A DNA stretch of 64,000 bases. Origin: Vicinamibacterales bacterium. GTDB lineage: Bacteria > Acidobacteriota > Vicinamibacteria > Vicinamibacterales > UBA2999. This document shows positions 1,041 through 55,127 of this stretch, piece by piece. A program made the position numbers and the translations under genes. Below the pieces are notes generated by a model. The model was not told where the DNA came from and did no database searches. It worked only from the letters and a program-made list of their open reading frames with translations. The first letter of the stretch is position 1; every line of letters starts with the position of its first letter. The stretch lies in NCBI GenBank assembly GCA_050250645.1, contig JBFWOG010000017.1:49006-113005 (forward strand), written 5' to 3'.

Positions 1041-1178
1041 CTTCGATGAGTAATCAAGAACCAAGAATCAAGAATCAAGAATCAAGGACCGGGACCGCGC
1101 CGGCGAGCTTCGGGTCCTTGTTTCTGGATTCTTGATTCTCGATTCTTGATTCCTCATCGAAGAAGCCCTTGATTACTC
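1039..1178. repeat. Inverted pair of AATCAAG arrays (long hairpin 1039-1164) plus terminal CTTGATTACTC copy
   Basis: TTCTTCGATGAGTAATCAAGAA (1039-1060) is the reverse complement of 1143-1164 except for one mismatch. Confidence 0.92.
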
Positions 1179-7582: not shown

Positions 7583-7628
7583 TTGACAGCCTGCCTACGA
7601 TGTCGGCATGATGCCAACAAGGTAGGCA
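7583..7628 (+). promoter_or_regulatory. -35 TTGACA plus two tandem palindromic PadR operator candidates
   Basis: TTGACA 7583-7588; TGCCTAC-GAT-GTCGGCA 7592-7608 and TGCCAAC-AAG-GTAGGCA 7612-7628. Confidence 0.7.
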
Positions 7629-7634
7629 TTCAAG

Positions 7635-7964
7635 ATGGCCCAGGGTCCGCTCGGCGAATTCGAAGTCCTCGTCCTCCTCGCGGTGCTGCACCTCGGCGAC
7701 GCCGCGTACCCGCCCGCCGTGCGGACCGCCATCGAGGCCCGCACGGGACGCGCGGTCGCCCGCGGCGCCGTCTACGTCACCCTCGACCGCCTCGAAGCCA
7801 AGCGCCTCCTCGCCTCCCGGCTCGACGACACCGACGGGACCGGCGGCCGGCCCCGGCGCTTCTATCGCGTGGCGCCGCGCGGGCTCACCGCCCTGCGCCG
7901 CGCCCTCCACGCGGTCGAGCGCATGCGCGACGGCCTCGAGGCGCTCATCGGGAAGCCCTCGTGA
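7635..7964 (+). CDS. PadR family transcriptional regulator
   Basis: LGEFEVLVLLAVL..GAVYVTLDRLEAKRLL..GGRPRRFYRV. Confidence 0.93.
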   Translation: MAQGPLGEFEVLVLLAVLHLGDAAYPPAVRTAIEARTGRAVARGAVYVTLDRLEAKRLLASRLDDTDGTGGRPRRFYRVAPRGLTALRRALHAVERMRDGLEALIGKPS

Positions 7965-36997: not shown

Positions 36998-39634
36998 TCA
37001 GCCCTCCTCGCGCAGCACGGCCACCGGGTCCACGCCGGCGGCCCGGCTCGCCGGCAGGTAGGCCGCCAGCAGCCCCACGGCGAGCGTGGCCGCGCACGCC
37101 GCGGCCAGCGCCACCGGGTCGAGCGGCGACACGTCGAACAACAGCCCCGCGAGCACGCGCGTGAACGCCACCGCGCCCACGAGCCCCGCTGCCATCCCGC
37201 CGAGCAGCAGCGCCGCCGCCCCGCCGAGGATGCCCGAGACCACCTCGCCCCGGCCGGCCCCGAGCGCCATGCGGATGCCGATCTCCCGCCGCCGCGCTGC
37301 GACCATGTGCGCCAGGACCCCGTAGAGCCCGAGCGCGGCCAGTAGCGTCGCCACCGCCGCGAACGCCCCGATGATCCACGCCGGGCGCGTGGTCCCCGCG
37401 AACGTCCCCTCCCGGACCTCGGTCATCGTCGTCACCTCGCCGAGCGGCAGGCCCGGCGCGACCTCGCGGACGGCCTCACGCACGCCGCCGATGGCGGTGG
37501 CGGCATCGCCGTCCACGCGCACGATGAGCGTCGCCGCCGCGGTGGGCACCTGGGCCATCGCCACGTAGGCGACCGGCGGATCCGGCCGGCCGGGCGCGTC
37601 CACGCGCTCGGGCCGGATGACACCGACCACCTCGAAGGCACCCGCGTCGCTCTCGGGCTTCCCGTAGGCCGGGAACGTGAGCCGCACGACCTGCCCGATC
37701 GGGTCCGCGACGCCCGCCTGCTCGGCCACGCGCGCGGCCAGCGGCTCGTTGAGGACAACGACACGCCGCGCGCCTGGCGTGTCGCGCCGCGTCACGCCGC
37801 GCCCGGCCACGACGGGGATGTCGAACGCGTCGAAGTACCCGGGATCCACCCGCTTGAACCGCACCCCGAACATCTCGCCGCTGCCCACCTGCATGCCCTC
37901 GCCGTTGCCGATCCACCGCAGCGGCAGGTGCGACGTGAAGGCGGCCCGCCGGACGCCGGGCGCCGCCTCGACCCGCTCGGCAATCGCCGCGAACGCGCGG
38001 GCGGCGGCGTCCGCGGAGGGATAGAGGTTCTCCGGCAGGCTCGCGTCGATGGCCACGACGCCCGCGATGCGGATGCCCGACTCGACGGCCTGCAGGCGCA
38101 GCAGGCTCCGGAGCAGCAGGCCGGCGCCGCACACGAGGACCAGCGACAGCGCGACCTCGCCGACGACGATGAGCCGCCGCACGCGCGCCTGCCGGCCTGA
38201 CGATCCGCGGGCGCCCTGGTTGAGCCAGCCCGCGAGGGCGCCGAACCGCGTCTGGAGGGCGGGCAGGATGCCGACGCCAAGGGCCACGGCGACGACCGTC
38301 GCGCCGGTGAACGCCAGTACCCGCAGGTCGAGGCGCACGTCGGCGGTCGGGGGCAGGGCCTCGCGCACGAGCGGCCCGGCCGCGCCCAGCAGCCCGTATG
38401 CCAGGGCCAGGCCCGCGCCCCCGCCGAGGGCGCAGAGCACGACGCTCTCGGTGAGGAGTTGCGCGACGAGCCGCGCGCGCCCCGCCCCGAGTGCCGCGCG
38501 CACCGCCAGCTCCCGCCGGCGGGTCGCGCCCCGCGCGAGCAGCAGGTTCGCGACATTCGCGCACGCGATGAGCAGCACGAGCAGCGCGGCGCCAAACGCC
38601 ACGATGACCGTGCGCCGCAGGCGGCTCCCCACGAGCCACTCGTCGAGCCGGCGCACTTCGATCGTGCGGCCCGGCTGGCTGACGAGGGCCGGCGGCGAGA
38701 TCGCCCGGTCGGCGGCCGCCAGTTGCGCCATGGCCTGCTGCACGCTGGTGCCCTCGCGCAGCCGGCCGCGCACCGTCAGCCAGTGCATCGGCGAGTTCCG
38801 CTGCCCGGGCTCGAAGGCCAGCGGAACCCAGACGGCGGCGGCATCCCGGTCGAAGATGCCGGCCGGCAGGACGCCGACGATGCGGTACGGCCGCCCGTCG
38901 AGCCGCATCTCCTGGCCGAGCGCGCTCGCCGCGCCGCCGAAGTAGGCCTGCCACGCCGCGTGGCTCAGCACGACAACCGGCTCGGCCCCCGGCGCATCGT
39001 CGCCGGGCCCGAGCAACCGGCCGATCGCCGGGGAGGCGCCGTACACGGCGAAGTAGTCGGCGGTCACCGCTTGGCCGGCGACGCGCGTGGGCTCGCCCCG
39101 GCCACTGAGGGTCAACAGCGACGCGCGCTCCGCCGACAGGGCCTCGAACGCGGTCGTGCGGCTCCGCCACTCGAGGAACTCCCCCGTCGTGGTCGAGTTG
39201 TACCCGCCGGCGCTCGGCGCCTCGAAGACGCGGACGATGCGCGCGGCGTCCGGGTACGGGAGGGGCTTCAGGAGCACCGCGTCCACGAGGCTGAACATCG
39301 CCGCCGTGGCGCCGATGCCGAGGGCGAGCACGCCGATCACGACGGCGCTGAAGCCTGGCTGCCGCCCGGTTGCCGCGAGGCCGTAGCGCAAATCCCGGCC
39401 GAGGTGCTCGAGCCACCGCACGCTCCGGGCGTCACGATGCGCCTCCCGCACGGCGTCGACGCTGCCGAAGCGGAGGCGCGCGGCGCGGCGCGCCTCGTCG
39501 GGTGGGAGGCCGGACGCCAGCGCCTCGCGCTCGGCCATCTCGAGGTGCGCGCGCATCTCGGCCTCCAGCTCGCGGTCGAGCCGGCCGGTGCGCACGAGCG
39601 CCACCAGGCGGGCCACGAGCCGTCGCGGGCTCAC
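36998..39634 (-). CDS. ADOP-family duplicated ABC transporter permease
   Basis: LDRELEAEMRAHLE..ARRAARLRFG, ALGIGATAAMFS..LLKPLPY, IACANVANLLLARG, ends DPVAVLREEG. Confidence 0.94.
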   Translation of the reverse strand: MSPRRLVARLVALVRTGRLDRELEAEMRAHLEMAEREALASGLPPDEARRAARLRFGSVDAVREAHRDARSVRWLEHLGRDLRYGLAATGRQPGFSAVVIGVLALGIGATAAMFSLVDAVLLKPLPYPDAARIVRVFEAPSAGGYNSTTTGEFLEWRSRTTAFEALSAERASLLTLSGRGEPTRVAGQAVTADYFAVYGASPAIGRLLGPGDDAPGAEPVVVLSHAAWQAYFGGAASALGQEMRLDGRPYRIVGVLPAGIFDRDAAAVWVPLAFEPGQRNSPMHWLTVRGRLREGTSVQQAMAQLAAADRAISPPALVSQPGRTIEVRRLDEWLVGSRLRRTVIVAFGAALLVLLIACANVANLLLARGATRRRELAVRAALGAGRARLVAQLLTESVVLCALGGGAGLALAYGLLGAAGPLVREALPPTADVRLDLRVLAFTGATVVAVALGVGILPALQTRFGALAGWLNQGARGSSGRQARVRRLIVVGEVALSLVLVCGAGLLLRSLLRLQAVESGIRIAGVVAIDASLPENLYPSADAAARAFAAIAERVEAAPGVRRAAFTSHLPLRWIGNGEGMQVGSGEMFGVRFKRVDPGYFDAFDIPVVAGRGVTRRDTPGARRVVVLNEPLAARVAEQAGVADPIGQVVRLTFPAYGKPESDAGAFEVVGVIRPERVDAPGRPDPPVAYVAMAQVPTAAATLIVRVDGDAATAIGGVREAVREVAPGLPLGEVTTMTEVREGTFAGTTRPAWIIGAFAAVATLLAALGLYGVLAHMVAARRREIGIRMALGAGRGEVVSGILGGAAALLLGGMAAGLVGAVAFTRVLAGLLFDVSPLDPVALAAACAATLAVGLLAAYLPASRAAGVDPVAVLREEG

Positions 39635-39969
39635 GGCTTGGCCTCGAGGAAGCGCCCGACGAGGGCGGTGGCCTTTCTCCAGCTCTCCACCTCGCGGGCG
39701 AGCTGCTTCGCGCCGGCCCGCGTCAGGGCGTAGAACTTCACCTGCCGGCCCGTCTCGGACACGCCCCACTCGGTGCGAATCCACCCCTGCTGCTCGAGCC
39801 GGATGAGGGCCGGGTAGATCGAGCCCTGGCTGATCCGGACCTCGCTCTCCGCGACCTGCTCGATGCGGCGCGCCACGGCGTAGCCGTGCAGGGCGCCCAT
39901 GGTGTCCAGGGTCTTGAGGATCAGGAGATCCAGCGTGCCGTACGGAACTTCGGCCTTCTGTGGTGACAT
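39631..39969 (-). CDS. PadR family regulator (acidobacterial type)
   Basis: GTLDLLILKTL..HGYAVARRIEQ..GSIYPALIRLE..W..SETGR..KFYALTRAG. Confidence 0.95.
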   Translation of the reverse strand: MSPQKAEVPYGTLDLLILKTLDTMGALHGYAVARRIEQVAESEVRISQGSIYPALIRLEQQGWIRTEWGVSETGRQVKFYALTRAGAKQLAREVESWRKATALVGRFLEAKP

Positions 39970-47511: not shown

Positions 47512-47624
47512 TCGTCGAGCGGGATGTGTGCGAACGGATCCCAGCCTACCGCACCATCGCCCCGGCGGCCAACCGTCCACGGCAGGGCTGGCAGGCCGTC
47601 CGGCGCGCGCGCTACACTCCGCCC

Positions 47625-49331
47625 GTGCCGGCCCTCAGCGTGGTCATGCCCGTGCGCGACGGCGAGCGGTTCCTGCGCGACGCCATCGACAGCGTCCTCG
47701 CCCAGACCTTCGAGGACTTCGAGTTCCTCATCGTCGACGACGGGTCGACGGACGGGACCGCGGCGATCCTCGACGAGTACGCCGGCCACGATCGCCGGAT
47801 CAAGGTGCTCCGCAACCCGCGCCCGCTCGGCGCCGGCGCGGCGATCAACCGCGGCATCTCGGCGAGCCGCGCGCCGCTCATCGCCCGGATGGATGCGGAC
47901 GACCTCTCGATGCCCACGCGGTTCGCGCGCCAGACGGCCTTCCTCGACGAGCACCCGCACGTCGTGCTGTGCGGCACCGGGATGTGGGCCATCGACGAGC
48001 ACGGCGACGTGATCGGGGTCCACGAGGCGCCGGCCGGTGACGCCTGGCTGCGCGAACAGCTCCGCCATGACAACACGTTCGTCGCCGGCTCGGTGATGCT
48101 GCGCCGCCGCGAGGCCGAGAATGCCGGTCTCTTCTCGCCCGATCCCGCCTACATCTACGCCGAGGACTACGAGTTCTGGGTGCGCCTCGCGGCGCGCCAC
48201 CAGGTGGACAACATCCCCGAGCCGCTCTACAGCTACCGTGTGCACCCGCGGCCCGACGGGCGGGCGCGCGCCGAGGCGCAGGCAGCCTCCGCAGCCCGCA
48301 TCCGGCGGCTCGCCGCCGAGTGGCTCGACGGCAACGGGTACGACCAGCTGTTGCCGCGGCTGCACACGCCGGTGCCACGGGGGCGGATCTTCGTCCAGAT
48401 CGCGAGCTACCGTGACCCGGAGTGCCAGTGGACCATCCGCGACCTCTTCAGGCGCGCGGCCCGTCCCGACGACATCACCGTCGGCGTGTGCTGGCAGTAC
48501 GAGCCACGGTTCGACCAGGGCTGCTTCCGGATTCGCACGCGCCCCGACCAGGTGCGCACTGTCGATGTGCACATGCGCGAGGCGCGCGGCCTCGGGTGGG
48601 CGCGCCACCTGACCGAGCGCCTGTGGCAGGGCGAGGAGTACGTGCTCCAGATCGACGCCCACATGCGGTTCGCCGACCAGTGGGACGACCGGCTGCTCGA
48701 CGAGCTCGCCCAGTGCAACTCGCGCTTCCCGATCCTGACGGTCTATCCATGGGGCTACCGGCCGCCACGGACCCTGCACGAGGGCCCGCCGCTCCGGATG
48801 GCGGCGCTCAAGTTCGGCGACAACGGGCTGCTCGCCTACGTCGGGACGATCCACGGGGATCCGCCGACGCGCCCGGCGCCGCAGGCGTTCTGGGCAGGCG
48901 GCTTCGCCTTCTCACGCGCCGACGTCCTCAGGGAGGTGCCGCAGGATCCCTACCTGTTCTTCAACGAGACGGAGATGACACACGCGGCGCGCCTCTGGAC
49001 GCACGGCTGGGACCTGTTCGCGCCGGCCCAGAACCTGATCTGGCACTGCTACGGGCCGGACAAGCAGGTCACGCACGCGCCCTGGAGCGACGACCGCCGC
49101 TGGATCACGGCCGCCACGCGGGCGCAGCAGCGCACGTTCCACCTGCTGCAGGTCACGCCGACGAACGAACCGGCCGCCCTTCGCGAGCTCCCGCGTTATG
49201 GGCTCGGCCGGGACCGGACACTCGCGCAGTACCAGGAGTTCGCCGGCGTGGACTTCGCGGCGCGGACCATCACCGACGATGCGCGCAACGGCTATGTCAG
49301 GTCGGCCGCCGCGCGTCCACGGATGAGCTGA
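47625..49331 (+). CDS. Fused glycosyltransferase: N-terminal GT2 plus C-terminal Gnt1/GT60-like GlcNAc-transferase
   Basis: GT2: SVVMPV, IVDDGSTD, ARMDADD, EDYEFW. GT60: IFVQIASYRDPEC, YVLQIDAHMRF, FWAGGFAFS, VPQDPYLFF, ARLWTHGWD, YGLG..RTL..Y..FAGVDF. Confidence 0.9.
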   Translation: MPALSVVMPVRDGERFLRDAIDSVLAQTFEDFEFLIVDDGSTDGTAAILDEYAGHDRRIKVLRNPRPLGAGAAINRGISASRAPLIARMDADDLSMPTRFARQTAFLDEHPHVVLCGTGMWAIDEHGDVIGVHEAPAGDAWLREQLRHDNTFVAGSVMLRRREAENAGLFSPDPAYIYAEDYEFWVRLAARHQVDNIPEPLYSYRVHPRPDGRARAEAQAASAARIRRLAAEWLDGNGYDQLLPRLHTPVPRGRIFVQIASYRDPECQWTIRDLFRRAARPDDITVGVCWQYEPRFDQGCFRIRTRPDQVRTVDVHMREARGLGWARHLTERLWQGEEYVLQIDAHMRFADQWDDRLLDELAQCNSRFPILTVYPWGYRPPRTLHEGPPLRMAALKFGDNGLLAYVGTIHGDPPTRPAPQAFWAGGFAFSRADVLREVPQDPYLFFNETEMTHAARLWTHGWDLFAPAQNLIWHCYGPDKQVTHAPWSDDRRWITAATRAQQRTFHLLQVTPTNEPAALRELPRYGLGRDRTLAQYQEFAGVDFAARTITDDARNGYVRSAAARPRMS

Positions 49332-49413
49332 CGACGCTGTATCATTTTGGCTTGCGTCTCCGTCGCGGCGATCGATAATGTGTGGCGTTCGCGACACGCC
49401 ACGGAGCCCCCTC

Positions 49414-50631
49414 ATGGCAGAGTCACGCCCTTCGTCCTCCCCGAACCCCGCCCTCGACGCGCTGCTGGCGCGCGTGGACCTGACCCGCCGCAGCTTCCTC
49501 GGGCGGCTCCTCGCCACGGGGGCGATGGCCGGCCCCGCCGTGGCCTCGCTTGCGATGCCTGCGGCCGCGCAGGCCTTCGGCGGCCAGGCCACGACGGCGC
49601 CGCCGCCATTCATCACGACCACCACCCCGTTCCCGACCACGGGCGTGCCCGGCACGCCGTTGCCGACGACGGCGCTGACCCTGCCGCCGTCCACGACGCC
49701 CTTCCCGACCACGACGACCACCCCGTTCCCGACGACGGTCTTCTCGACGACGCCGGTGCTGACGACGGGCGTGACGCTGCCGCCGTCCACGACGTTCGCG
49801 ACGACGCCGCCGCCGACGACCACGACGACGACGTTCGCCACGACGACGCCGCCGCCGACCACGACGTTTGCCACGACGCCGCCGGCAACCACACCACCGC
49901 CGGCCACGAGCGCCGTGCTCGGCGTGCAGGCCGACACCTTCATCCGGGAAGACGAGCCGAACACCAACGAGGGCGCCAACCCGGTGCTCCGCGTCGGCGT
50001 GGGACCGGTCAGCCGTGGGCTGGTGCAGTTCGATCGCCTGGCGCTCCTCAGCGAACTGCAGACCCACGCGCTCGCCAGCGCCGTCCTCGTCGTCACCATC
50101 GCCAACAACCACAACACGTGGGGCCAGGACGAGAACCGGGGCGTCGACGCGTTTCCGCTCGACGTGGAATTCGTCGAGGGCAACGGCGCGCAGGCGACGC
50201 TGCCCGCGGCTGACGAGCAGCGCGCGTTCGGTCCCGGCGCCACGTGGAACTCACCGGCCGACCCCGACTGCCAGGACGACAGGATCGGGCGTCACGCGCC
50301 GCGCTGGCGGCGGGGTGACGTCGGCCGCGCGACCGCGCCCACGGCCGTCCACACGAATCACCTCGACGGCGAGGTCTCCTGGGACGTCACCGCCGACGTC
50401 ATCGCGGGGGCCAGCGGCTGGATGCTCGGGGTCGACGCCGAACGATACGGCCGGGGCGACCATGGCGACGACCACGGGCGGGGCCGCCGGGATCAGGACG
50501 ACCACGGCCGGCGGCGCCGGGCTCCGGGACGCGAGGACTTCGCGGGTGTCGTGGAGTACTACTCGCGCGAGGGCGCGACCGAGGCCGGCAACATCATGTT
50601 GGCGGCCCGGCTCATCCTGACCTACGCCTGA
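49414..50631 (+). CDS. Tat-leader protein with Thr/Pro mucin-like stalk and DNRLRE/CBM96-like C-terminal domain
   Basis: TRRSFL..AAAQA; about 47 Thr in ~107 aa; ADTFIR..PNTNEG..LRV..SRGLVQFD, ATWN, WDVTADV, YSRE..RLILTY. Confidence 0.85.
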   Translation: MAESRPSSSPNPALDALLARVDLTRRSFLGRLLATGAMAGPAVASLAMPAAAQAFGGQATTAPPPFITTTTPFPTTGVPGTPLPTTALTLPPSTTPFPTTTTTPFPTTVFSTTPVLTTGVTLPPSTTFATTPPPTTTTTTFATTTPPPTTTFATTPPATTPPPATSAVLGVQADTFIREDEPNTNEGANPVLRVGVGPVSRGLVQFDRLALLSELQTHALASAVLVVTIANNHNTWGQDENRGVDAFPLDVEFVEGNGAQATLPAADEQRAFGPGATWNSPADPDCQDDRIGRHAPRWRRGDVGRATAPTAVHTNHLDGEVSWDVTADVIAGASGWMLGVDAERYGRGDHGDDHGRGRRDQDDHGRRRRAPGREDFAGVVEYYSREGATEAGNIMLAARLILTYA

Positions 50632-50633
50632 TC

Positions 50634-51752
50634 GTGCCGGCCAGGCCCGCCATCGCCGTCATCCTGACGGGTGACGTCCCGGCGGCGGGCCGCCGCCGCT
50701 GCCGCGCCGCCTTCGGCCGACAGTCGGTCCCTGCCGCCCGCATCGAACTGCTGGACGCGGCCGGCGCCGGGCCAATCGGGCGCCGGCGCAACCGCGCCGT
50801 CGCGGCCGCCCGCGCGCCATTCCTGCTCTTCTGGGACTACGCCTGGCATCCCCTGCCGGGCCTGATCGCCTACTGCCTCGACCAGCATGCCCGGCACGAC
50901 GCGGCCGGCGACGCCGTGCTCGTGCACGCCGAACCGGGGATCGGGGCACGACACTCGCCCATCGCGCGGTGGTGGCAGCACCTCGGCGGCTGGCCGGCCC
51001 GACCCGCGACCGACGGGGTCTATGCCTGGCCCCACTTCCGGGCGCCCGGCCTCTCCGTGCGGGCGGAACTCTTCGAGCGCGCGCGCTTCGACGATGACTT
51101 CGCGGCCGGGGACGACGCGGAGCTGGCCGCACGACTGTCGTCACGCCTGCCGCTTTGTGTCTGGTTCGAGCGCTTTGCCCTCGCGACGATCGAGGACGTG
51201 CCGTCAATCGAGGCGGTGGTCGCCGCGGCGTGGCAGGACGGGTACTTCCGGCGGCTGCGGTGGGCGCGCACGCCGGCGCTGCGCGACGTCGCCGACCTCC
51301 AGGCCGTGCACGCCGAACCGCAGCGCTTCGAGCGGCCGGCCGCGCAGGCGCCAGCGATGTGGGCGACGGTGCGCGGACTCGAGGCGAGCTTCGAGGGCGT
51401 GGACCTGAGCTTCAGGGACAAGGACCAGACGGATCGGTTGCAGGTGCTCTTCGAGGCCTGCGAAATCCTCGTCAACGCCGCGATCGCGGACGGCCACCGC
51501 GCGGCGCTGGCCGGCGAGCCACCGGCCGTGCCGCCGGCGCCTTCGCTCGCCTCGCCGCCGCCGGCGCGGCAGTCTTCGTCTTCGTCGTCGCGGCAGGCTT
51601 CGTCGTCGGCGGCTTCGCGGCCGGCGCCGTCCGCGTCGCGCTCCGGGACCTCGCGTGCGGCGGCCTCGAAACCGGGGCCTTCGCCTTCGGGGCCTTCCGG
51701 CTCCCGCGCGCGGGGCGTGGCGGTGACGCGGCGACGGCGCCCGCCTCGCTGA
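50634..51752 (+). CDS. Divergent GT2-like glycosyltransferase (DxD motif degenerate)
   Basis: RQSVPAARIEL, RRNRAVAAARAPFLLFWD, LSVRAELF..RFDDDF..GDD.ELAARL; tail overlaps the convergent gene. Confidence 0.7.
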   Translation: MPARPAIAVILTGDVPAAGRRRCRAAFGRQSVPAARIELLDAAGAGPIGRRRNRAVAAARAPFLLFWDYAWHPLPGLIAYCLDQHARHDAAGDAVLVHAEPGIGARHSPIARWWQHLGGWPARPATDGVYAWPHFRAPGLSVRAELFERARFDDDFAAGDDAELAARLSSRLPLCVWFERFALATIEDVPSIEAVVAAAWQDGYFRRLRWARTPALRDVADLQAVHAEPQRFERPAAQAPAMWATVRGLEASFEGVDLSFRDKDQTDRLQVLFEACEILVNAAIADGHRAALAGEPPAVPPAPSLASPPPARQSSSSSSRQASSSAASRPAPSASRSGTSRAAASKPGPSPSGPSGSRARGVAVTRRRRPPR

Positions 51753-51996
51753 CGACGAGCCCCATCCCGACCAGTTCGTCGAGCGTCTTCACGAGGTCGG
51801 CCACTGCGACATTCGTGGCGCTCGCCACGCCGGCTGCCAGTTCCTCGGTGGTGGCCTCCCCCTGGCAGAGCTCGAGCAGCAACGCCGCCAACGGGTTGAG
51901 GTGGTGCAGCGTCCCCGTCGCCGCCCGCCGCACGACGTACCCATTGGGGACGGGGTGAATCTGGAGATCGTCCGCGCGCCGCAGTCGTGCCGCCAT
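51472..51996 (-). CDS. PqqD-family (RiPP recognition element) protein with Lys/Ala/Pro-rich tail
   Basis: V.NGYVV....GTLHHLNPLAALLLELCQG..T.EELA....LDEL...GLV; TATAAT 8 nt upstream of ATG. Confidence 0.82.
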   Translation of the reverse strand: MAARLRRADDLQIHPVPNGYVVRRAATGTLHHLNPLAALLLELCQGEATTEELAAGVASATNVAVADLVKTLDELVGMGLVVSEAGAVAASPPRPARGSRKAPKAKAPVSRPPHARSRSATRTAPAAKPPTTKPAATTKTKTAAPAAARRAKAPAARPVARRPAPRGGRPRSRR

Positions 51997-52049: not shown

Positions 52050-52133
52050 TCTCTTCCCCGGTCGTCCCGACAGCCGTCCCCGCCGATCCCGCTCCCGCGC
52101 AAACGAGGCCCGCCGGTGTGCCCTGTCGGTGAT

Positions 52134-52145
52134 ATTGTTAACAAT
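52134..52145. promoter_or_regulatory. Perfect palindrome ATTGTTAACAAT upstream of PadR
   Basis: AT-rich island 25 nt before the start codon. Confidence 0.55.
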
Positions 52146-52170
52146 GTTACTTATACAAGCGAGCCCTTCC

Positions 52171-52503
52171 ATGGCGACCAGCAACCTTGGCGAGTTCGAA
52201 CAGCTCGTGCTCCTCGCCTGCCTCAGGCTCGGCGAGGACGAGGCCTATGCCGTGTCCATCGTCGATGAGATTCGCGAACGGACGGGGCGCGACGTCCAGC
52301 GCGCCGCGGTGTACGTCACCCTGCAGCGGCTCGAGGCCAAGCGCCTCGTCTCGACCCGGCTGGGCGACGCGCGGCCCGAGCGTGGAGGCAAGGCGCGGCG
52401 TCTCGTGAGGGTCGAACCGGCGGGGCGGGCCGCGACCCGCGAGTCGCGGCAGGCGCTCCAGCGCATGTGGGTTGGCCTCGACGCGCGGCTGGAGGAGCGA
52501 TGA
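52171..52503 (+). CDS. PadR family transcriptional regulator
   Basis: LGEFEQLVLLACL..AVYVTLQRLEAKRLV..ERGGKARR. Confidence 0.93.
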   Translation: MATSNLGEFEQLVLLACLRLGEDEAYAVSIVDEIRERTGRDVQRAAVYVTLQRLEAKRLVSTRLGDARPERGGKARRLVRVEPAGRAATRESRQALQRMWVGLDARLEER

Positions 52504-55127
52504 ACACGCCCCGTCCGGCCCGCTGGCTGCTGCGCCTGCTCGTCCAGGCCGATCGCCTCGACGATGTGCTCGGCGATCTCGAGGAGGTGCACGCGCGACG
52601 GCGGCGCGGCGGACCGGCGCTGGCCTGGGCGGCGACGGTCGCCGAGGCCGGCGTCGTCGGGGGCGCGCTGCTGTGGATTCGTCTCCGATCGGCGGCATGG
52701 CCCGACCTGCGGCACGCCGTCGCGGCGACAGACGTCCGGCTCGCGCTGCGCCTCATGCGCCGCCAGCCGATCGTCACCCTCACGGCCGGCGTCGCCCTCG
52801 CGCTCGGCATCGGCCTGGCGACGGTCGGCTTCGGCTTCGCCGAGGCGCTCCTCGACAGCCGGCTGCCCTTCGAGGGCGGCGACCGCTTCGTGCGGATCGA
52901 CGTGGTGCAGGAGCCGGAGCACACTCCGGCCCGGCTGAGGCCGGACGACTACCAGGTACTGGCCACGGGAACGCCGCTCCTCGAGCACCTCGGGGCGCTC
53001 AGCATGAGCCATGCGTACGCCACCCTGCCGTCGGGCGCCACCGACATCGTCACCACCGCCGGCCTCACGCCGTCGTCGCTGCGCCTGCTGCCGTACGCGC
53101 CGCTCCGGGGCCGGCTGTTCGTGCCGGCCGACGGCCGGGCCGGGGCCGAGCCTGTCGTCATGCTCCGCGAGGCGTACTGGCGGCGGGCACTCGGCGCGGC
53201 AGACGACGTCGTCGGCGCGACCATCGAGGTCGGCGGCGTCTCGCGCACGATCGTCGGCGTCGCGCCCGACCAGTTCGAGTTCCCCAACACCCCGGACCTC
53301 TGGACGCCGATCGACGAGGGCTTCCTGACGGGGCGCGCGGAGCCCGTCGACGGCGCGCGCCTGTTCGGGGTCCTGGCGCCGGGCCGGTCGCTGGCGTCGG
53401 CACGCGAGGCCGTCGCGACGCTGTCGGCGCGGCTGGCTCCCGCGCCAGGCGCGACCGGGCCGCTCCGGGTGGAACTCGTGGGCTTCACCGACGTCGGCCC
53501 CCAGGGCGTCCCCCTGGCGCTCGCCGCCCTCGCGGCCGTGCTGGCCGTGCTCGTGGTGGTGGCCGCCAACGTGGGCAACCTGGTTCTCGCGCGGTCGTTC
53601 ACGCGGACGCGTGAGCTGGCGCTGCGCGCGGCCCTCGGCGCGTCGCGGGAGCGGCTCGTCTGCCAGATCAGCCTCGAGGTGCTCGTGATCGGCGCCGTGG
53701 CGGCCGTCGTCGGCAGCGCCGCCGCGCAGGCCGTGCTTCGACAGTTCAACGCGATCGACGAGATCCCCTTCTGGGTGGACTTCAGCGGCGGGCCGCGGAC
53801 GCCGTTCCTCGTCGCCGGCGCGACGCTGCTGGCCACGGCCGTCGCAGGCGCCTGGCCGGCGCTCAAGGCGACGCGACGCGACCTGGTGGGCGCGATGCAG
53901 GGCGGCGACGGGCGCACGAGCGACGTGCGCTTCGGCCGGGTCGCCGGCGCGATGGTGGTGACGCAAATCGCGGTGTCGGTGGTGATGTTGCACGGCGCGA
54001 TCGTCGTGGCACAGGGGTTCGCGGCGTACGCCGGCGCCGAACTGGGCCTGCCACGCGACGTGCTGACGGCCGGGCTGAGCCTCGAGGGCCACCGGGACGA
54101 AGACACCGGGCACGCGCCGTCACCTGGAATTCGCGCCATCGAGGAAATCGCGCGGGTGCAGCCGGGCGTGCGGGCGGCGGGAATCACGACCGCCCTGCCG
54201 CGGCACAGCCCGCCTGCGCGCCTCGTCGAGGTGGAAACGGCCGCTGGCGAGGCGCCTCACGCGCCCATGGCGGCGCCGGCCGCGGCGGTCACCGCCGGCT
54301 ACTTCGCCGCCCTCGACACGGCGCCGCTCGGCGGGCGCCTCTTCGACGACGCGGACTACGCGGAGGGGGCGGCAGCCGTCGCAGTGGTCAATGCGCCCTT
54401 CGTGCGGCGGTTCCTCGCCGGTGGCTCACCGATCGGCCGCCGCTTCCGGACCGTCGACGGCGCGGCCCCGGGGCCCTGGCTGTCCATCGTCGGGGTCGTG
54501 CCGGATCTGGGCTTGAGCGTGGGCGACCCGGCGCTGGCGGCCGGCTACTACACCCCGCTGGACCTTGCGGGGGACGGCGAGGGACGGTTCGTGTACCTCG
54601 CGGTCCGCACCGACGGGGACCCGCTGCCGCTGGCGATGCCGCTCGGCCGCGCGCTGAACGAGAGGGATCCCGCCCTGGTGCTGAACCGGCCGGAGCGCCT
54701 GGAGGATGTCGGCAGCGAGGACCGGACGTTCTTCGTGTGGTTCTCGACAGCGCTCGTCGGCCTCGGGCTCGCGACGCTGGTACTGGCGCTGGCTGGCGTC
54801 TACGCCATGATGGCGCTCATCGTGGCGCGCCGCACGCGGGAGATCGGCATCCGCGTGGCGCTCGGCGCGCCGGGGTCCCGCATCGTCGCCACGATCGTCG
54901 GGCGGGCGGCCGCGCAGGTGGCGCTCGGCGGCGGTGTGGGCGCCATGCTGGCCGTGGCCTCGCTCGCCGGGCGCGGGCAGCTGGTGATGTCCAGGCTGGG
55001 CGACGGCGGCCGGTGGACGCTGCCGCTCGTGCTCGGCCTCCTGGTCGCGGCGGGCCTCGCGGCGACGTGGGTGCCCCTGCGGCGGGCCCTGGGTGTCCAG
55101 CCGGCCGAGGCCCTGCGGGCCGAATAG
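52500..55127 (+). CDS. ADOP-family duplicated ABC transporter permease
   Basis: ATGA overlap; ALALGIGL, AANVGNLVLARS..RELALRAALGASR, GVYAMMALIVARRTREIGIRVALGA, ends QPAEALRAE. Confidence 0.92.
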   Translation: MNTPRPARWLLRLLVQADRLDDVLGDLEEVHARRRRGGPALAWAATVAEAGVVGGALLWIRLRSAAWPDLRHAVAATDVRLALRLMRRQPIVTLTAGVALALGIGLATVGFGFAEALLDSRLPFEGGDRFVRIDVVQEPEHTPARLRPDDYQVLATGTPLLEHLGALSMSHAYATLPSGATDIVTTAGLTPSSLRLLPYAPLRGRLFVPADGRAGAEPVVMLREAYWRRALGAADDVVGATIEVGGVSRTIVGVAPDQFEFPNTPDLWTPIDEGFLTGRAEPVDGARLFGVLAPGRSLASAREAVATLSARLAPAPGATGPLRVELVGFTDVGPQGVPLALAALAAVLAVLVVVAANVGNLVLARSFTRTRELALRAALGASRERLVCQISLEVLVIGAVAAVVGSAAAQAVLRQFNAIDEIPFWVDFSGGPRTPFLVAGATLLATAVAGAWPALKATRRDLVGAMQGGDGRTSDVRFGRVAGAMVVTQIAVSVVMLHGAIVVAQGFAAYAGAELGLPRDVLTAGLSLEGHRDEDTGHAPSPGIRAIEEIARVQPGVRAAGITTALPRHSPPARLVEVETAAGEAPHAPMAAPAAAVTAGYFAALDTAPLGGRLFDDADYAEGAAAVAVVNAPFVRRFLAGGSPIGRRFRTVDGAAPGPWLSIVGVVPDLGLSVGDPALAAGYYTPLDLAGDGEGRFVYLAVRTDGDPLPLAMPLGRALNERDPALVLNRPERLEDVGSEDRTFFVWFSTALVGLGLATLVLALAGVYAMMALIVARRTREIGIRVALGAPGSRIVATIVGRAAAQVALGGGVGAMLAVASLAGRGQLVMSRLGDGGRWTLPLVLGLLVAAGLAATWVPLRRALGVQPAEALRAE

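What the first reader, a model, noticed from the sequence alone, without database searches (positions are those of the whole stretch)
47625..51996. Candidate RRE-guided, Tat-coupled mucin-type O-glycosylation system
Seen: a co-oriented GT2+GT60 fusion without signal peptide, a Tat-leader protein with a ~107-aa Thr/Pro stalk (47 Thr by my count; PFPTT, FATTPPPTT repeats) and DNRLRE-like domain, and a GT2-like gene, plus a convergent PqqD/RRE gene. Established: GT60 enzymes (Dictyostelium Gnt1/Gnt2, trypanosome OGNT) transfer alpha-GlcNAc to hydroxyproline or Thr of mucin-like proteins and use a DxH motif, present here as IDAH. PqqD/RRE domains bind leader peptides to deliver substrates to modifying enzymes, and Tat exports folded, cytoplasmically matured proteins. 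Inference: RiPP-like logic applied to a large surface glycoprotein, where RRE binds the leader, GT60 primes Thr with GlcNAc, GT2 domains extend the glycan and Tat exports it. This parallels but differs from SecA2/GtfAB serine-rich-repeat systems, and I know of no described equivalent.
Basis: partly seen in the sequence, partly recalled or inferred. Interest (0 to 1): 0.88.

Follow-up and report, generated by a model that had tools for sequence, protein, structure and literature searches.

The report
Bacterial mucin-type protein glycosylation cassette
An uncultured acidobacterium carries a rare four-gene cassette that most likely attaches sugars to a threonine-rich secreted protein inside the cell, using an enzyme type otherwise studied in amoebae and trypanosomes, and then exports it by the folded-protein route; this combination has not been described in bacteria.

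Summary
Window 47625-51996 encodes four genes:
- a cytoplasmic GT2+GT60 fusion with DAD and DAH motifs;
- a protein with a twin-arginine (Tat) signal, a 106-residue stalk (47 Thr, 28 Pro) and a CBM96/DNRLRE-like domain;
- a divergent GT-A-like protein without a DxD motif;
- a convergent PqqD-type RRE gene.

The block recurs intact in two other Acidobacteriota genomes with different flanks, and was found nowhere else.

Three comparisons back the interpretation:
- The genome has only two GT60 genes and four real Thr/Pro-stalk ORFs. Three of the four have RR leaders and lie beside a GT60 gene. The fourth has a Sec signal and does not.
- In Proteobacteria, GT60 is fused to PqqD in L015, L023 and L031, and lies next to it in L050.
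- L015 and L031/L203 also encode small peptides with Tat-type leaders and Thr/Pro-rich cores. In L015 the 69-residue peptide sits directly upstream of a GT60-PqqD-HprK protein.

A PqqD-plus-leader complex prediction gave only weak support. No step is shown biochemically. The acceptor could be hydroxyproline, as in many relatives, and the third gene is probably not catalytic. No described bacterial equivalent turned up in my searches.

Verdict: real, coherent, and a new variant. Interest is high.

The parts
47625..49331 (+). Bifunctional cytoplasmic glycosyltransferase, 568 aa (alternative GTG start at 47526)
   Evidence: PF00535 7.4e-39 and PF11397 3.8e-73; no hydrophobic segment; 79% and 62% identical orthologues in L013 and L014.
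47637..48113 (+). GT2 (GT-A, inverting type) domain with a DAD motif at residue 90
   Evidence: the best solved relatives by sequence are GT2 enzymes (5hea_A, 2e-15).
48387..49259 (+). GT60 (Pfam 'GlcNAc') domain
   Evidence: matches at G000:C17:97392-97529 and 97548-98264, converted to window coordinates..
48654..48662 (+). DxH motif (D344-A-H346, within QIDAHMRF), the GT60/GT27 replacement for DxD
   Evidence: The motif is invariant in alignment A2. PMC7185993 (passages seen) reports DxH in place of DxD in GT27 and GT60.
49414..49575 (+). Twin-arginine (Tat-type) signal: n-region, TRRSFLG, a mildly hydrophobic h-region, and AQA before F67
   Evidence: TIGR01409 18.1 bits against a 16.7 cut-off; the leader is conserved across three orthologues; the Atlas gene call starts at M13. 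TatC is present in the genome.
49591..49908 (+). Mucin-like stalk, 106 aa: 47 Thr, 28 Pro, 8 Phe, 3 Ser
   Evidence: counts. (GC3 0.93-1.0 in frame). (the stalk is retained in L013 and L014).
49909..50631 (+). CBM96/DNRLRE-like domain with an inserted His/Asp/Gly/Arg-rich loop
   Evidence: NF033679 4.3e-5, below its cut-off. CBM96 clusters, feature score 0.94, TM 0.66-0.70; my own AF2 model failed (pLDDT 30).
50634..51752 (+). Divergent GT-A-like protein, probably non-catalytic. It starts 2 nt after the stalk gene's stop codon.
   Evidence: FWD[YAG][AR]W stands where real GT2s have F[VT]DAD, and there is no DNGS-type motif; the N-terminal ~100 aa are modelled with confidence and every Foldseek top hit is a GT2 GT-A enzyme; only 3 proteins in 5.8 billion.
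51754..51924 (-). PqqD/RRE domain of the convergent 174-aa gene (51472..51996)
   Evidence: PF05402 29.1 bits against 23.4; nearest NCBIfam model is TIGR04353 PqqD_rel_X at 3.6e-4, below its cut-off; orthologues in L013 and L014.
51472..51753 (-). Basic Lys/Ala/Pro/Thr-rich tail of the PqqD protein, overlapping the 3' end of the GT-A-like gene
   Evidence: GC3 0.85 on the minus strand against 0.71 on the plus strand; the tails of the orthologues are basic but not conserved in sequence.

Best explanation
This is a dedicated cytoplasmic protein O-glycosylation cassette.

The GT2-GT60 enzyme has no signal peptide. Its GT60 domain (DxH, retaining) most likely starts glycans on the threonines of the 106-residue Thr/Pro stalk. 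By analogy with the eukaryotic family the sugar is alpha-GlcNAc from UDP-GlcNAc. The fused GT2 domain adds the next sugar. The substrate is the protein encoded immediately downstream, which carries a CBM96-like domain.

The substrate's twin-arginine leader then sends the finished, already glycosylated protein through the Tat pathway. Tat accepts cargo that matured in the cytoplasm.

The small PqqD-type RRE protein most likely binds the leader. That binding would present the substrate to the enzyme, hold it back from export until it is modified, or both. The third gene is a GT-A-like protein that has lost its DxD and nucleotide-binding motifs. It is more likely a non-catalytic accessory subunit than a transferase.

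Shown: gene content, motifs, co-orientation, conservation of the block, and recurrence of the GT60 / RR-leader / Thr-Pro / PqqD association. Inferred: sugar identity, acceptor residue, RRE-leader binding, order of events, and Tat dependence.
For: (a) Anatomy. The three plus-strand genes are separated by 46 nt and 2 nt, which fits an operon. Neither GT has a signal peptide or membrane segment. TatC is present in the genome.

(b) Conservation of the block. All four genes were found by tblastn in L013/L011 (same genus; 79/64/56/47% identity) and in L014 (62/53/40/48%). The flanking genes differ in each.

(c) Repetition within the genome. PF11397 matches only 2 loci in G000. A whole-genome scan gave 23 candidate Thr/Pro-rich ORFs. 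By coding-frame GC3, 4 are genuine: the window gene, two on C9, and C11:105-2132. Both C9 proteins have RR leaders (SRRAFVRK, TRRRFVRL) and lie directly upstream of the second GT60 gene, a GT60 plus HtrL_YibB multidomain protein. The fourth has a classical Sec signal and is not next to a GT60 gene. The sister genome keeps an RR-leader stalk protein about 4.7 kb from its second GT60 gene.

(d) Fusion evidence for GT60 working with an RRE. In the 49 genome-contig loci, a PqqD domain is fused to GT60 in L015, L023 and L031, adjacent in L050, and convergent in L013 and L014. That is 6 of 49. Among 120 listed long GT60 proteins, 5 carry PF05402.

(e) Small-peptide analogues.
- L015 encodes a 69-aa peptide with a GGAGG ribosome-binding site. 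Its TIGR01409 Tat signal scores 21.4 bits against a 16.7 cut-off, and its core is ...GGTTTSFPTTTTTTPPPFTQ. It lies directly upstream of a GT60-PqqD-HprK_rel_A protein.
- L203 (the L031 locus) has an RRDFLKK-leader peptide ending ...QPTPAPEPTPRPET.
- In L050 the PqqD protein itself continues into an RR/hydrophobic segment and a Pro/Thr tail.
- L201 has PqqD-HprK but no GT60, and its RR-leader peptide has no Thr/Pro core.

(f) Family knowledge. GT60 enzymes transfer alpha-GlcNAc to Thr of Thr-rich, Ser-poor mucins. The T. cruzi acceptor peptide is KPPTTTTTTTTKPP, and the mucins are about 50% Thr and about 1% Ser (PMC3769586, abstract and section 4). GT60 groups with the polypeptide GalNAc-transferases of GT27 and shares their DxH motif (PMC7185993, passages). 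The stalk here is 44% Thr and 3% Ser.

(g) Complex prediction, PqqD residues 1-95 against leader residues 1-80. Score 0.34, best of 3 controls 0.02, verdict 'weak support'. The mark was reached by 58 of 80 solved complexes and 2 of 110 mismatched pairs. At 0.60 or under it was reached by only 7 of those 80, and by both mismatches that passed. The runs agree in at least 84% of contacts and the partner's pLDDT is at least 55.
Against: - No biochemical or expression data exist.
- The block is known from only 3 genomes, two of them in one genus, so its conservation is partly shared ancestry.
- It was not found in 60 relatives of G426, in 39 of 40 relatives of G000, or in two metagenome scans.
- Eight other Acidobacteriota GT60 loci (L089-L096) have no adjacent stalk protein.
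- The second GT60 locus in this genome has no PqqD gene nearby.
- L018, a GT2-GT60 fusion 49% identical in the GT60 domain, lies beside Wzz/GumC-like genes and has no stalk protein.
- 43 of 120 listed long GT60 proteins are fused to 2OG-Fe(II) oxygenases. At least 14 of 49 loci have such a neighbour. The ancestral bacterial acceptor may therefore be hydroxyproline rather than Thr.
- The L015 peptide and the window leader show no detectable homology (BLASTP E = 17). The parallel is one of design, not of shown descent.
- L023 has a GT60-PqqD fusion, but its RR-leader peptide ends in GNSRR with no Thr/Pro core.
- The complex score is in the range where passes are more often wrong than right unless the guess was already likely.
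Confidence: 0.6

Rival explanations
1. The glycosyltransferases build a polysaccharide or glycolipid rather than a glycoprotein. The Tat-exported CBM96-like protein binds or processes that polymer outside the cell, and the Thr/Pro stretch is only a flexible linker.
For: CBM96-type domains are carbohydrate-binding modules. The GT2 domain's nearest NCBIfam models are exopolysaccharide and teichuronic-acid enzymes (EpsE 4.9e-36, TuaG), all far below their cut-offs. L018, 49% identical in the GT60 domain, sits beside Wzz/GumC-like genes. A Sec-dependent protease in this genome has a (TP)n linker and no GT60 gene nearby.
Against: No flippase, polymerase, priming transferase or export gene lies in the cassette or its conserved part. 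All characterised GT60 enzymes act on polypeptides. The GT60 link to RR-leader Thr/Pro sequences recurs with unrelated cargo domains: CBM96-like, FN3, and 69-aa peptides with no domain at all. Fusions of GT60 to PqqD and to prolyl-hydroxylase-like oxygenases point to peptide substrates.
Confidence: 0.12
2. The module works as in the best explanation, but the acceptor is hydroxyproline rather than threonine. A prolyl hydroxylase encoded elsewhere first hydroxylates the 28 stalk prolines, and GT60 then adds GlcNAc as in the eukaryotic Skp1 pathway.
For: 43 of 120 listed long GT60 proteins carry PF13640 or PF13661 oxygenase domains. Oxygenase neighbours or fusions were found in at least 14 of 49 loci (L050 and L059 add two more). 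TadE-like pseudopilins with (TPAP)n tails lie beside GT60 plus oxygenase genes in L039 and L045. The genome has one weak oxygenase-like match, on C5 (3e-7).
Against: No oxygenase lies in or near any of the three copies of the cassette or the C9 locus. The stalk is dominated by Thr runs with very little Ser, like the Thr-directed GT60 acceptors. The L015 system has no oxygenase and a core made of Thr runs.
Confidence: 0.12
3. The PqqD gene is a bystander. GT60 recognises the stalk directly, and the convergent PqqD protein serves another process, such as one linked to the divergent PadR / FtsX-permease pair.
For: The gene is on the opposite strand and shares a 132-nt divergent region with a PadR gene. 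The second GT60 locus has no PqqD gene. The genome's other PqqD gene, on C35, lies beside an HprK-like gene and is unrelated to GT60. The complex score is weak.
Against: PqqD stays attached to the cassette in L013 and L014, where PadR is not adjacent and the flanks differ. GT60-PqqD fusions in three proteobacterial MAGs and adjacency in a fourth give independent evidence that the two domains work together.
Confidence: 0.12
4. The RR-containing leader is mainly an RRE recognition tag of a RiPP-like system and not a working Tat signal. The product stays in the cell or leaves by another route.
For: The same RRxF[LI]K-type leader recurs on very small peptides in the PqqD-HprK ('HPr-rel-A'-like) cassettes. 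In L050 the equivalent segment lies inside the PqqD protein itself. The leader is unusually well conserved among the three orthologues.
Against: The leaders pass the curated Tat-signal model in the window, L013 and L015. They have the usual n/h/c layout with an AxA site. The cargo domains (CBM96-like, FN3) are typical extracytoplasmic domains. TatC is present.
Confidence: 0.04

Closest known systems
Eukaryotic GT60 polypeptide alpha-GlcNAc-transferases (T. cruzi TcOGNT-2, Dictyostelium Gnt2; Skp1 Hyp-GlcNAc-transferase Gnt1)
   Same: Same Pfam family (PF11397, 3.8e-73) and the same DxH motif. The acceptor is a Thr-rich, Ser-poor, Pro-containing mucin-like sequence.
   Different: This enzyme is bacterial, soluble and cytoplasmic, and fused to a GT2 domain. 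It is paired with an RRE protein and a substrate that carries a Tat leader. TcOGNT-2 and Gnt2 are Golgi membrane proteins. Gnt1 is cytoplasmic but acts on a single Hyp of Skp1 (recalled). Activity here is untested.
Serine-rich-repeat adhesin systems (GtfA/GtfB with accessory SecA2/SecY2) - recalled
   Same: A dedicated cytoplasmic O-GlcNAc-type glycosylation of a long hydroxy-amino-acid repeat in a surface protein. The system includes a non-catalytic glycosyltransferase-like partner, and export goes by a route that tolerates the glycosylated cargo.
   Different: The enzymes are GT-A (GT60 and GT2), not GT-B. The repeats are Thr/Pro, not Ser. Export is by Tat-type leader, not accessory Sec. An RRE protein is present. 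No SecA2/SecY2 was seen in the cassette.
RiPP pathways with PqqD-type RREs, including lasso-peptide tailoring by HPr-kinase homologues and nucleotidyltransferases
   Same: A PqqD-family domain sits next to, or is fused to, the modifying enzyme. The proteobacterial relatives combine it with HprK-like and PF14907 nucleotidyltransferase genes and small precursor peptides. In lasso peptides, such kinases phosphorylate the C-terminal Ser and such nucleotidyltransferases add hexoses (PMC8498205, passages).
   Different: Here the substrate is a 417-aa secreted protein. The 'leader' is a Tat signal. No leader protease, cyclase or ABC exporter is present, and the modifying enzyme is a GT60.
Tat proofreading chaperones (TorD/DmsD-type REMPs) - recalled
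   Same: A small cytoplasmic protein proposed to bind a twin-arginine leader until the cargo has matured.
   Different: The fold family is different (PqqD winged-helix rather than all-helical TorD). The maturation step would be glycosylation rather than cofactor insertion. Binding has only weak in-silico support.
NCBIfam 'HPr-rel-A system' (TIGR04352 HprK_rel_A, TIGR04353 PqqD_rel_X)
   Same: The window's PqqD protein has TIGR04353 as its nearest NCBIfam model (3.6e-4, below cut-off). The proteobacterial GT60-PqqD fusions carry HprK_rel_A-like domains (1.3e-22 and 2.9e-19, both below cut-off).
   Different: The window cassette has no HprK-like or PF14907 gene. The only such match in the genome is on C35. 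I found no publication on the function of the HPr-rel-A system.

Membership tests
GT60 (Pfam PF11397 'GlcNAc') | Significant match to the family profile | tested here: met
   3.8e-73, 247.4 bits against a cut-off of 21; found again in the genome search.
GT60 (Pfam PF11397 'GlcNAc') | DxH motif in place of the GT-A DxD | tested here: met
   D344-A-H346; invariant in three orthologues; the motif is stated for GT27 and GT60 in PMC7185993.
GT60 (Pfam PF11397 'GlcNAc') | Transfer of alpha-GlcNAc from UDP-GlcNAc to Thr or Hyp of a polypeptide | not testable with these tools
   Needs an enzyme assay. Only context supports it.
GT2 (PF00535), N-terminal domain of the fusion | Profile match and DxD motif | tested here: met
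   7.4e-39. DAD at residue 90.
GT2, third gene (50634..51752) | Profile match, DxD motif and nucleotide-binding D(D/N)GS motif | tested here: not met
   no Pfam hit; a single Asp in FWD[YAG][AR]W and no DNGS-type motif; the GT-A fold is supported, but from a model with pLDDT 58.
PqqD / RiPP recognition element (PF05402) | Profile match above the gathering score | tested here: met
   29.1 bits against 23.4.
PqqD / RiPP recognition element (PF05402) | Binds the leader of the substrate | tested here: inconclusive
   score 0.34, best of 3 controls 0.02, verdict 'weak support'. The mark was reached by 58 of 80 solved complexes and 2 of 110 mismatched pairs, but at 0.60 or under by only 7 of those 80 and by both mismatches that passed. 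The runs agree in at least 84% of contacts and the partner's pLDDT is at least 55. No interface was reported.
Twin-arginine (Tat) signal peptide | S/T-R-R-x-F-L motif, moderately hydrophobic h-region, AxA site, profile match | tested here: met
   TIGR01409 18.1 bits against 16.7. TRRSFLG, the h-region, and AQA; the L013 orthologue also passes; the L014 and C9 proteins show the motif only.
Twin-arginine (Tat) signal peptide | Export depends on TatABC | not testable with these tools
   TatC is present in the genome. Dependence needs an experiment.
CBM96 / DNRLRE domain | Profile match above the cut-off | tested here: not met
   NF033679 23.6 bits against 34. There is no PF24517 hit at E <= 0.01. 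Supporting leads only: Atlas CBM96 clusters; similar sub-threshold hits in L013, L014 and one C9 protein.
Serine-rich-repeat protein glycosylation (GtfA/GtfB + aSec) | GT-B GtfA/GtfB pair, SecA2/SecY2, Ser-rich repeats | tested here: not met
   The enzymes are GT-A. The stalk has 3 Ser in 106 residues. No Sec paralogue was seen among the cassette genes. I did not search for SecA2 genome-wide.
NCBIfam HPr-rel-A system | HprK_rel_A kinase and PqqD_rel_X together (PF14907 nucleotidyltransferase often adjacent) | tested here: not met
   TIGR04353 only 21.4 bits against 35; no HprK-like or PF14907-like match in the window's contig by tblastn; the single HprK-like match is on C35.

The most novel reading that the evidence does not exclude
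Bacteria have an unrecognised class of RRE-dependent peptide and protein O-glycosylation systems built on GT60 enzymes. In these systems a twin-arginine-type leader serves both as the handle that the PqqD domain holds and as the export signal. Glycosylation, and in relatives prolyl hydroxylation or phosphorylation, is completed in the cytoplasm before Tat transport. The small 'HPr-rel-A'-type cassettes with 50-70-aa RR-leader peptides would be the RiPP-sized form. The acidobacterial cassette would be the same logic scaled up to a mucin-like surface glycoprotein.
Probability: 0.35. Interest if true: 0.9.

Novelty: new variant of a known kind. Interest (0 to 1): 0.8.

Why it matters
If true, this would be the first functional assignment for bacterial GT60 enzymes and the first mucin-type, Thr-directed O-GlcNAc-like system in bacteria.

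It would also be a natural case of cytoplasmic glycosylation coupled to Tat export. That bears on what Tat can carry, and on producing glycoproteins in bacterial hosts.

It would extend the role of RRE domains from small RiPP precursors to whole secreted proteins, and give a testable function to the uncharacterised 'HPr-rel-A' cassettes.

The L015 system offers a compact model: a 69-aa peptide plus one tri-domain enzyme.

The side observation of GT60 with prolyl-hydroxylase-like genes next to Tad pseudopilins carrying (TPAP)n tails suggests hydroxyproline-linked glycosylation of bacterial pili. That would mirror the eukaryotic Skp1 pathway.

Tried and rejected
Metagenome scans. With the third gene (A1) no relative was found. 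With the fusion (A2) the patterns picked a generic GT2 motif. None of the 80 kept loci matched the GT60 half at high identity; the longest match, L133, covered residues 2-476 at 27%. This added nothing.

Relatives. The cassette was not found in 60 relatives of G426. GT60 was found in only 1 of 40 relatives of G000. The L015-type enzyme was found whole only in G487 itself among 101 genomes searched; 3 others had partial matches.

Structure. The AF2 model of the CBM96-like domain failed (mean pLDDT 30) and was not searched. The model of the third gene is only partly confident (pLDDT 58), so its Foldseek TM scores of about 0.4 support the fold class only.

Solved structures. phmmer found no solved relative of the GT60 half (21 hits, all to the GT2 half).

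Homology. I considered homology between the L015 peptide and the window leader and rejected it (E = 17).

Self-glycosylating tail. I considered that the PqqD protein's own Pro/Thr/Lys-rich tail is the acceptor, as L050 suggested. The tails in L013 and L014 are not Thr/Pro-rich, so I dropped this as a general feature.

L014 open frame. In L014 the stalk gene and the third gene read as one 830-aa open frame. I cannot tell a real fusion from an assembly frameshift.

Expression. No RNA holder was listed for the stretch, and I did not lay reads.

Literature. Searches of the held library returned no paper on a bacterial GT60 function, on PqqD with a glycosyltransferase and Tat, or on the HPr-rel-A system. 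The searches were: GT60+bacteria+glycosyltransferase; Gnt1+Skp1+prokaryot+hydroxyproline; PqqD+glycosyltransferase+twin-arginine; PF11397; twin-arginine/O-glycosylation/cytoplasmic glycosylation; HprK-related kinase/TIGR04352/TIGR04353/PF14907; and mucin-like/Acidobacteria/O-glycosylation/glycoprotein. Subscription journals are not covered.

Papers seen:
- PMC7185993: passages only.
- PMC8498205: passages only.
- PMC3769586: abstract, outline and section 4.
- All others: search listings only.

I did not request supplements, which are closed. The supplementary family tables of PMC7185993 may list bacterial GT60 members.

Full report
WHAT IS THERE. The window has 72% G+C. The title of its nearest relative points to a Vicinamibacterales (Acidobacteriota) genome. 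It maps to G000:C17:49006-113005.

Gene 1 (47625..49331, +) carries PF00535 Glycos_transf_2 (7.4e-39) and PF11397 'GlcNAc', the GT60 family (3.8e-73). It has a DAD motif at residue 90 and D344-A-H346 within QIDAHMRF. It has no hydrophobic segment.

Gene 2 starts 46 nt downstream (49378, or 49414 by the Atlas gene call).
- Its leader, TRRSFLG followed by a mildly hydrophobic h-region and AQA, passes the curated Tat-signal model at 18.1 bits against 16.7.
- Residues 72-177 form a 106-residue stalk with 47 Thr, 28 Pro, 8 Phe and only 3 Ser.
- In-frame GC3 there is 0.93-1.0, so this is the true frame.
- The C-terminal 240 residues match DNRLRE_dom only below threshold. The ESM Atlas puts them with CBM96 clusters, at feature score 0.94 and TM 0.66-0.70. 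My own AF2 model failed.

Gene 3 starts 2 nt after gene 2's stop codon (50634..51752). Gene 4 (51472..51996, -) is a PqqD-family protein at 29.1 bits against 23.4, with a basic tail. The 281-nt overlap between genes 3 and 4 has the codon bias of the minus strand.

Flanking genes are a BrkB-like gene and a Ca/cation antiporter upstream, and PadR plus a MacB/FtsX permease downstream.

THE BLOCK IS A UNIT. All four genes were found by tblastn in the same order in the sister species (L013 = G001:C14; 79/64/56/47% identity). They were also found in a more distant Acidobacteriota MAG (L014 = G426:C3; 62/53/40/48%). The flanks differ in each case:
- In L013 the BrkB gene lies on the other side and a different permease follows PqqD.
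- In L014 the neighbours are 2-oxoacid:ferredoxin oxidoreductase genes and an unrelated membrane protein.

The cassette is rare.
- GT60 occurs in 2 of 41 genomes around G000, counting G000 itself.
- It occurs in 19 of 401 sampled genomes of the phylum at E <= 1e-3, again counting G000. Ten of these are strong matches (E <= 3e-38), and the other nine lack the cassette.
- The third gene has 3 relatives among 5.8 billion proteins: itself, the G001 orthologue and one JGI protein.
- The cassette was not found in 60 relatives of G426 or in two metagenome scans.

THE GT60 / STALK / RR-LEADER LINK REPEATS WITHIN THE GENOME. G000 has exactly two PF11397 loci.

The second is on contig C9. It encodes a 1184-aa protein with GT60 at the N-terminus, an HtrL_YibB-like domain and further unassigned sequence. 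Directly upstream lie two genes whose products start with RR leaders (SRRAFVRK and TRRRFVRL) and carry very long (T/S)P stalks. One has a DNRLRE-like domain and the other an FN3 domain.

A scan of all ORFs of 100 aa or more in the 5.2-Mb genome gave 23 candidates with a Thr/Pro-rich 50-residue window. Judged by coding-frame GC3, only four are genuine: these three, and C11:105-2132. That fourth protein is a matrixin-like protease with a classical Sec signal and a (TP)n linker. It is not beside a GT60 gene, though it lies at a contig start.

So every RR-leader stalk protein in the genome is next to a GT60 gene, and the one Sec-type protein is not. By my own arithmetic, +/-5 kb around two genes covers about 0.5% of the genome. 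Counting the two C9 genes as one event, two of three independent placements falling there has a chance probability of order 1e-4.

The sister genome keeps the second locus: the GT60 protein is 70% identical, with a WecB-like epimerase and another GT beside it. About 4.7 kb away lies a protein with an RR leader (SRRTFIRR), a DNRLRE-like domain, a TP stalk and FN3.

INDEPENDENT SUPPORT FROM OTHER PHYLA. I examined the 49 genome-contig loci found with the GT60 domain.

(i) PqqD.
- An HMM built from the three cassette PqqD domains hit an ORF directly downstream of GT60 in L050 (7.8e-13) and the C-terminus of the GT60 ORF in L023 (4e-4).
- Pfam confirmed PF05402 above its gathering score in L023 (a GT60-PqqD fusion), in L050 (a separate protein) and in L015 (a GT60-PqqD-HprK tri-domain protein).
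- L031 has the same fused frame.
- With L013 and L014, that makes 6 of 49 loci.
- Among the 120 listed long GT60 proteins (242 reached E <= 1e-10), 5 carry PF05402 and 1 carries a radical-SAM/SPASM pair.

(ii) Substrate-like peptides.
- L015 has a 69-aa ORF with a GGAGG site 5 nt upstream. It lies between a PF14907 nucleotidyltransferase gene and the tri-domain enzyme. Its leader passes TIGR01409 at 21.4 bits against 16.7. Its mature part is QAQYLGGTTTSFPTTTTTTPPPFTQ.
- In the L031 locus (re-fetched as L203), a 68-aa ORF has an RRDFLKK leader and ends in QPTPAPEPTPRPET.
- In L050 the PqqD protein runs on into an RR/hydrophobic segment and PPPPTTMSPATKPPSPPPTT. The neighbouring enzymes are a PF14907-GT2-GT60 fusion and an HprK-like / 2OG-oxygenase fusion.
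- As a contrast, L201 has PqqD-HprK and PF14907 but no GT60. Its RR-leader peptide ends in a core without Thr/Pro.
- As an exception, L023 has the fusion but its RR-leader peptide ends in GNSRR.
- These peptides show no detectable homology with the window leader (E = 17). The shared feature is the design.

(iii) Prolyl-hydroxylase-like oxygenases.
- 43 of the 120 listed long GT60 proteins carry PF13640 or PF13661, often together with a peroxiredoxin domain.
- tblastn found such neighbours or fusions in at least 14 of 49 loci, and in two more.
- In L039 and L045 the adjacent gene is a TadE-like pseudopilin with a (TPAP)n tail. In L055 it is a TpsA-like protein with a (PTPE)n tail.

Together these results indicate that bacterial GT60 enzymes act on Pro/Thr-rich peptides and proteins. 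They are often helped by an RRE, and sometimes follow prolyl hydroxylation.

THE THIRD GENE. Aligned with real GT2 enzymes, it has FWD[YAG][AR]W where they have F[VT]DAD, and a gap where they have the DNGS nucleotide-binding motif. AF2 models the first ~100 residues with confidence as a Rossmann-like half, and all leading Foldseek hits are GT2 GT-A enzymes. I read it as a GT-A-derived, probably non-catalytic partner. This is an inference. It resembles GtfB in the serine-rich-repeat systems (recalled).

RRE AND LEADER. The leader is unusually well conserved among the three orthologues, including its h-region. A complex prediction of PqqD residues 1-95 with leader residues 1-80 scored 0.34, against a best control of 0.02 among 3. 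The verdict was 'weak support'. The mark was reached by 58 of 80 solved complexes and 2 of 110 mismatched pairs. At 0.60 or under it was reached by only 7 of those 80, and by both mismatches that passed. The runs agree in at least 84% of contacts, and the partner's pLDDT is at least 55. This raises my odds a little and is not proof.

MECHANISM. The most likely sequence of events is as follows.
1. The RR-leader protein is made in the cytoplasm.
2. The PqqD protein binds its leader.
3. The GT60 domain puts the first sugar on stalk threonines, and the fused GT2 domain adds a second.
4. The GT-A-like protein assists.
5. The leader then engages TatABC (TatC is present), and the glycoprotein is exported and cleaved after AQA.

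The CBM96-like head on a stiff glycosylated stalk would sit at or beyond the cell surface.

Shown: gene content, motifs, operon-like spacing, conservation and recurrence. Inferred from family knowledge: UDP-GlcNAc as donor, an alpha-linkage and Thr as acceptor (PMC3769586; PMC7185993). Inferred from context: the RRE-leader contact, the order of steps and Tat dependence.

RIVALS.
- Polysaccharide synthesis with a secreted lectin. Supported by the CBM96 identity and by L018's Wzz-like neighbours. Weakened by the absence of any export or polymerase genes and by the peptide-sized analogues.
- Hydroxyproline as acceptor. Supported by the many oxygenase fusions. Weakened by the absence of an oxygenase in all three cassette copies and by the Thr-run composition.
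- PqqD as a bystander. Supported by its strand and by the PqqD-less C9 locus. Weakened by the fusions.
- The leader as an RRE tag only. Weakened by the curated Tat-model hits and the extracytoplasmic cargo domains.

COMPARISON AND NOVELTY. The system works like the serine-rich-repeat glycosylation systems and like RiPP pathways, but it is a member of neither (see the membership table). Its enzyme belongs to GT60 by profile and motif. My literature searches found no description of a bacterial GT60 function, of an RRE paired with a protein glycosyltransferase and a Tat substrate, or of the HPr-rel-A cassettes. The held library lacks most subscription journals. I rate it a new variant of known kinds: dedicated cytoplasmic O-glycosylation of a secreted repeat protein, and RRE-guided modification.

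LIMITS.
- Only three cassette copies are known, and two are close kin.
- Most comparative loci are MAG contigs, and many are short, so the counts are lower bounds.
- My ORF calls in high-GC DNA rest on GC3 and homology.
- The L014 open frame that joins genes 2 and 3 may be an assembly error.
- No expression data were found.

Noticed in passing
G000:C9:138836-145754 (locus L062 4929-11754): This is a second GT60 locus in the same genome. Two RR-leader proteins with very long (T/S)P stalks lie directly upstream of a 1184-aa protein. One has a DNRLRE-like domain and a His/Asp/Lys-rich tail; the other has FN3. The large protein has GT60 at the N-terminus, an HtrL_YibB-like domain and about 600 unassigned residues. 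No PqqD gene is nearby.
   Followed up: partly
L015 6111-10175: This is a minimal three-gene system in an alphaproteobacterial MAG. It comprises a PF14907 nucleotidyltransferase, a 69-aa peptide with a Tat-signal leader and a Thr-run core, and a GT60-PqqD-HprK_rel_A tri-domain enzyme. It looks like a new RiPP-like glycopeptide (perhaps phosphoglycopeptide) class.
   Followed up: partly
L201 6143-6310(-), L203 9975-10181(+), L023 974-1126(-): PqqD-HprK ('HPr-rel-A'-like) cassettes carry small ORFs with a shared leader design: an acidic n-region, RRxF[LI]K, then an Ala/Pro-rich h-region. The cores are short and variable. Whether these are exported by Tat or only use the leader for recognition is unknown.
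   Followed up: partly
L039 3425-6637; L045 5079-9173: TadE-like pseudopilins with (TPAP)n C-terminal tails lie next to a GT60-peroxiredoxin fusion and a 2OG-Fe(II) oxygenase, inside Tad pilus loci. This suggests hydroxyproline-linked glycosylation of pilus subunits.
   Followed up: partly
L055 3-6438: A filamentous-haemagglutinin-like (TpsA-type) protein ends in (PTPE)n repeats, with a TpsB-like gene beside it. Two GT60 genes flank them, and one is fused to a 2OG-Fe(II) oxygenase.
   Followed up: no
proteins P0004-P0024: These are giant proteins of 1400-2000 aa, several named as Rickettsiales or Alphaproteobacteria MAG proteins. They combine GT60, GT2, 2OG oxygenase and peroxiredoxin domains, and their E-values suggest more than one GT60 copy per protein.
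   Followed up: no
window 51472-51752: The 3' end of the GT-A-like gene and the basic tail of the PqqD gene overlap convergently by 281 nt. The codon bias follows the minus strand, so the last ~90 residues of the plus-strand ORF may be run-on sequence in stop-poor DNA.
   Followed up: partly
L014 8955-11444: In the distant orthologous cassette, the stalk protein and the GT-A-like protein read as one 830-aa open frame. This is either a real fusion or a frameshift in a long-read assembly.
   Followed up: no
window 1173-3797(-), 7583-10585(+), 36998-39784(-), 52467-55127(+): There are four large MacB_PCD/FtsX permease genes in 64 kb, and the last is preceded by a PadR gene (52129-52503). Other window genes include a TonB-dependent receptor, GlgB, a BNR/sortilin-like protein, CstA, a molybdopterin hydroxylase and a DUF4953 Met-zincin.
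   Followed up: partly
G000:C35:30599-31815: The genome's only other PqqD gene sits next to an HprK-like P-loop protein, away from any GT60 gene. It may belong to a separate peptide-modification cassette.
   Followed up: no
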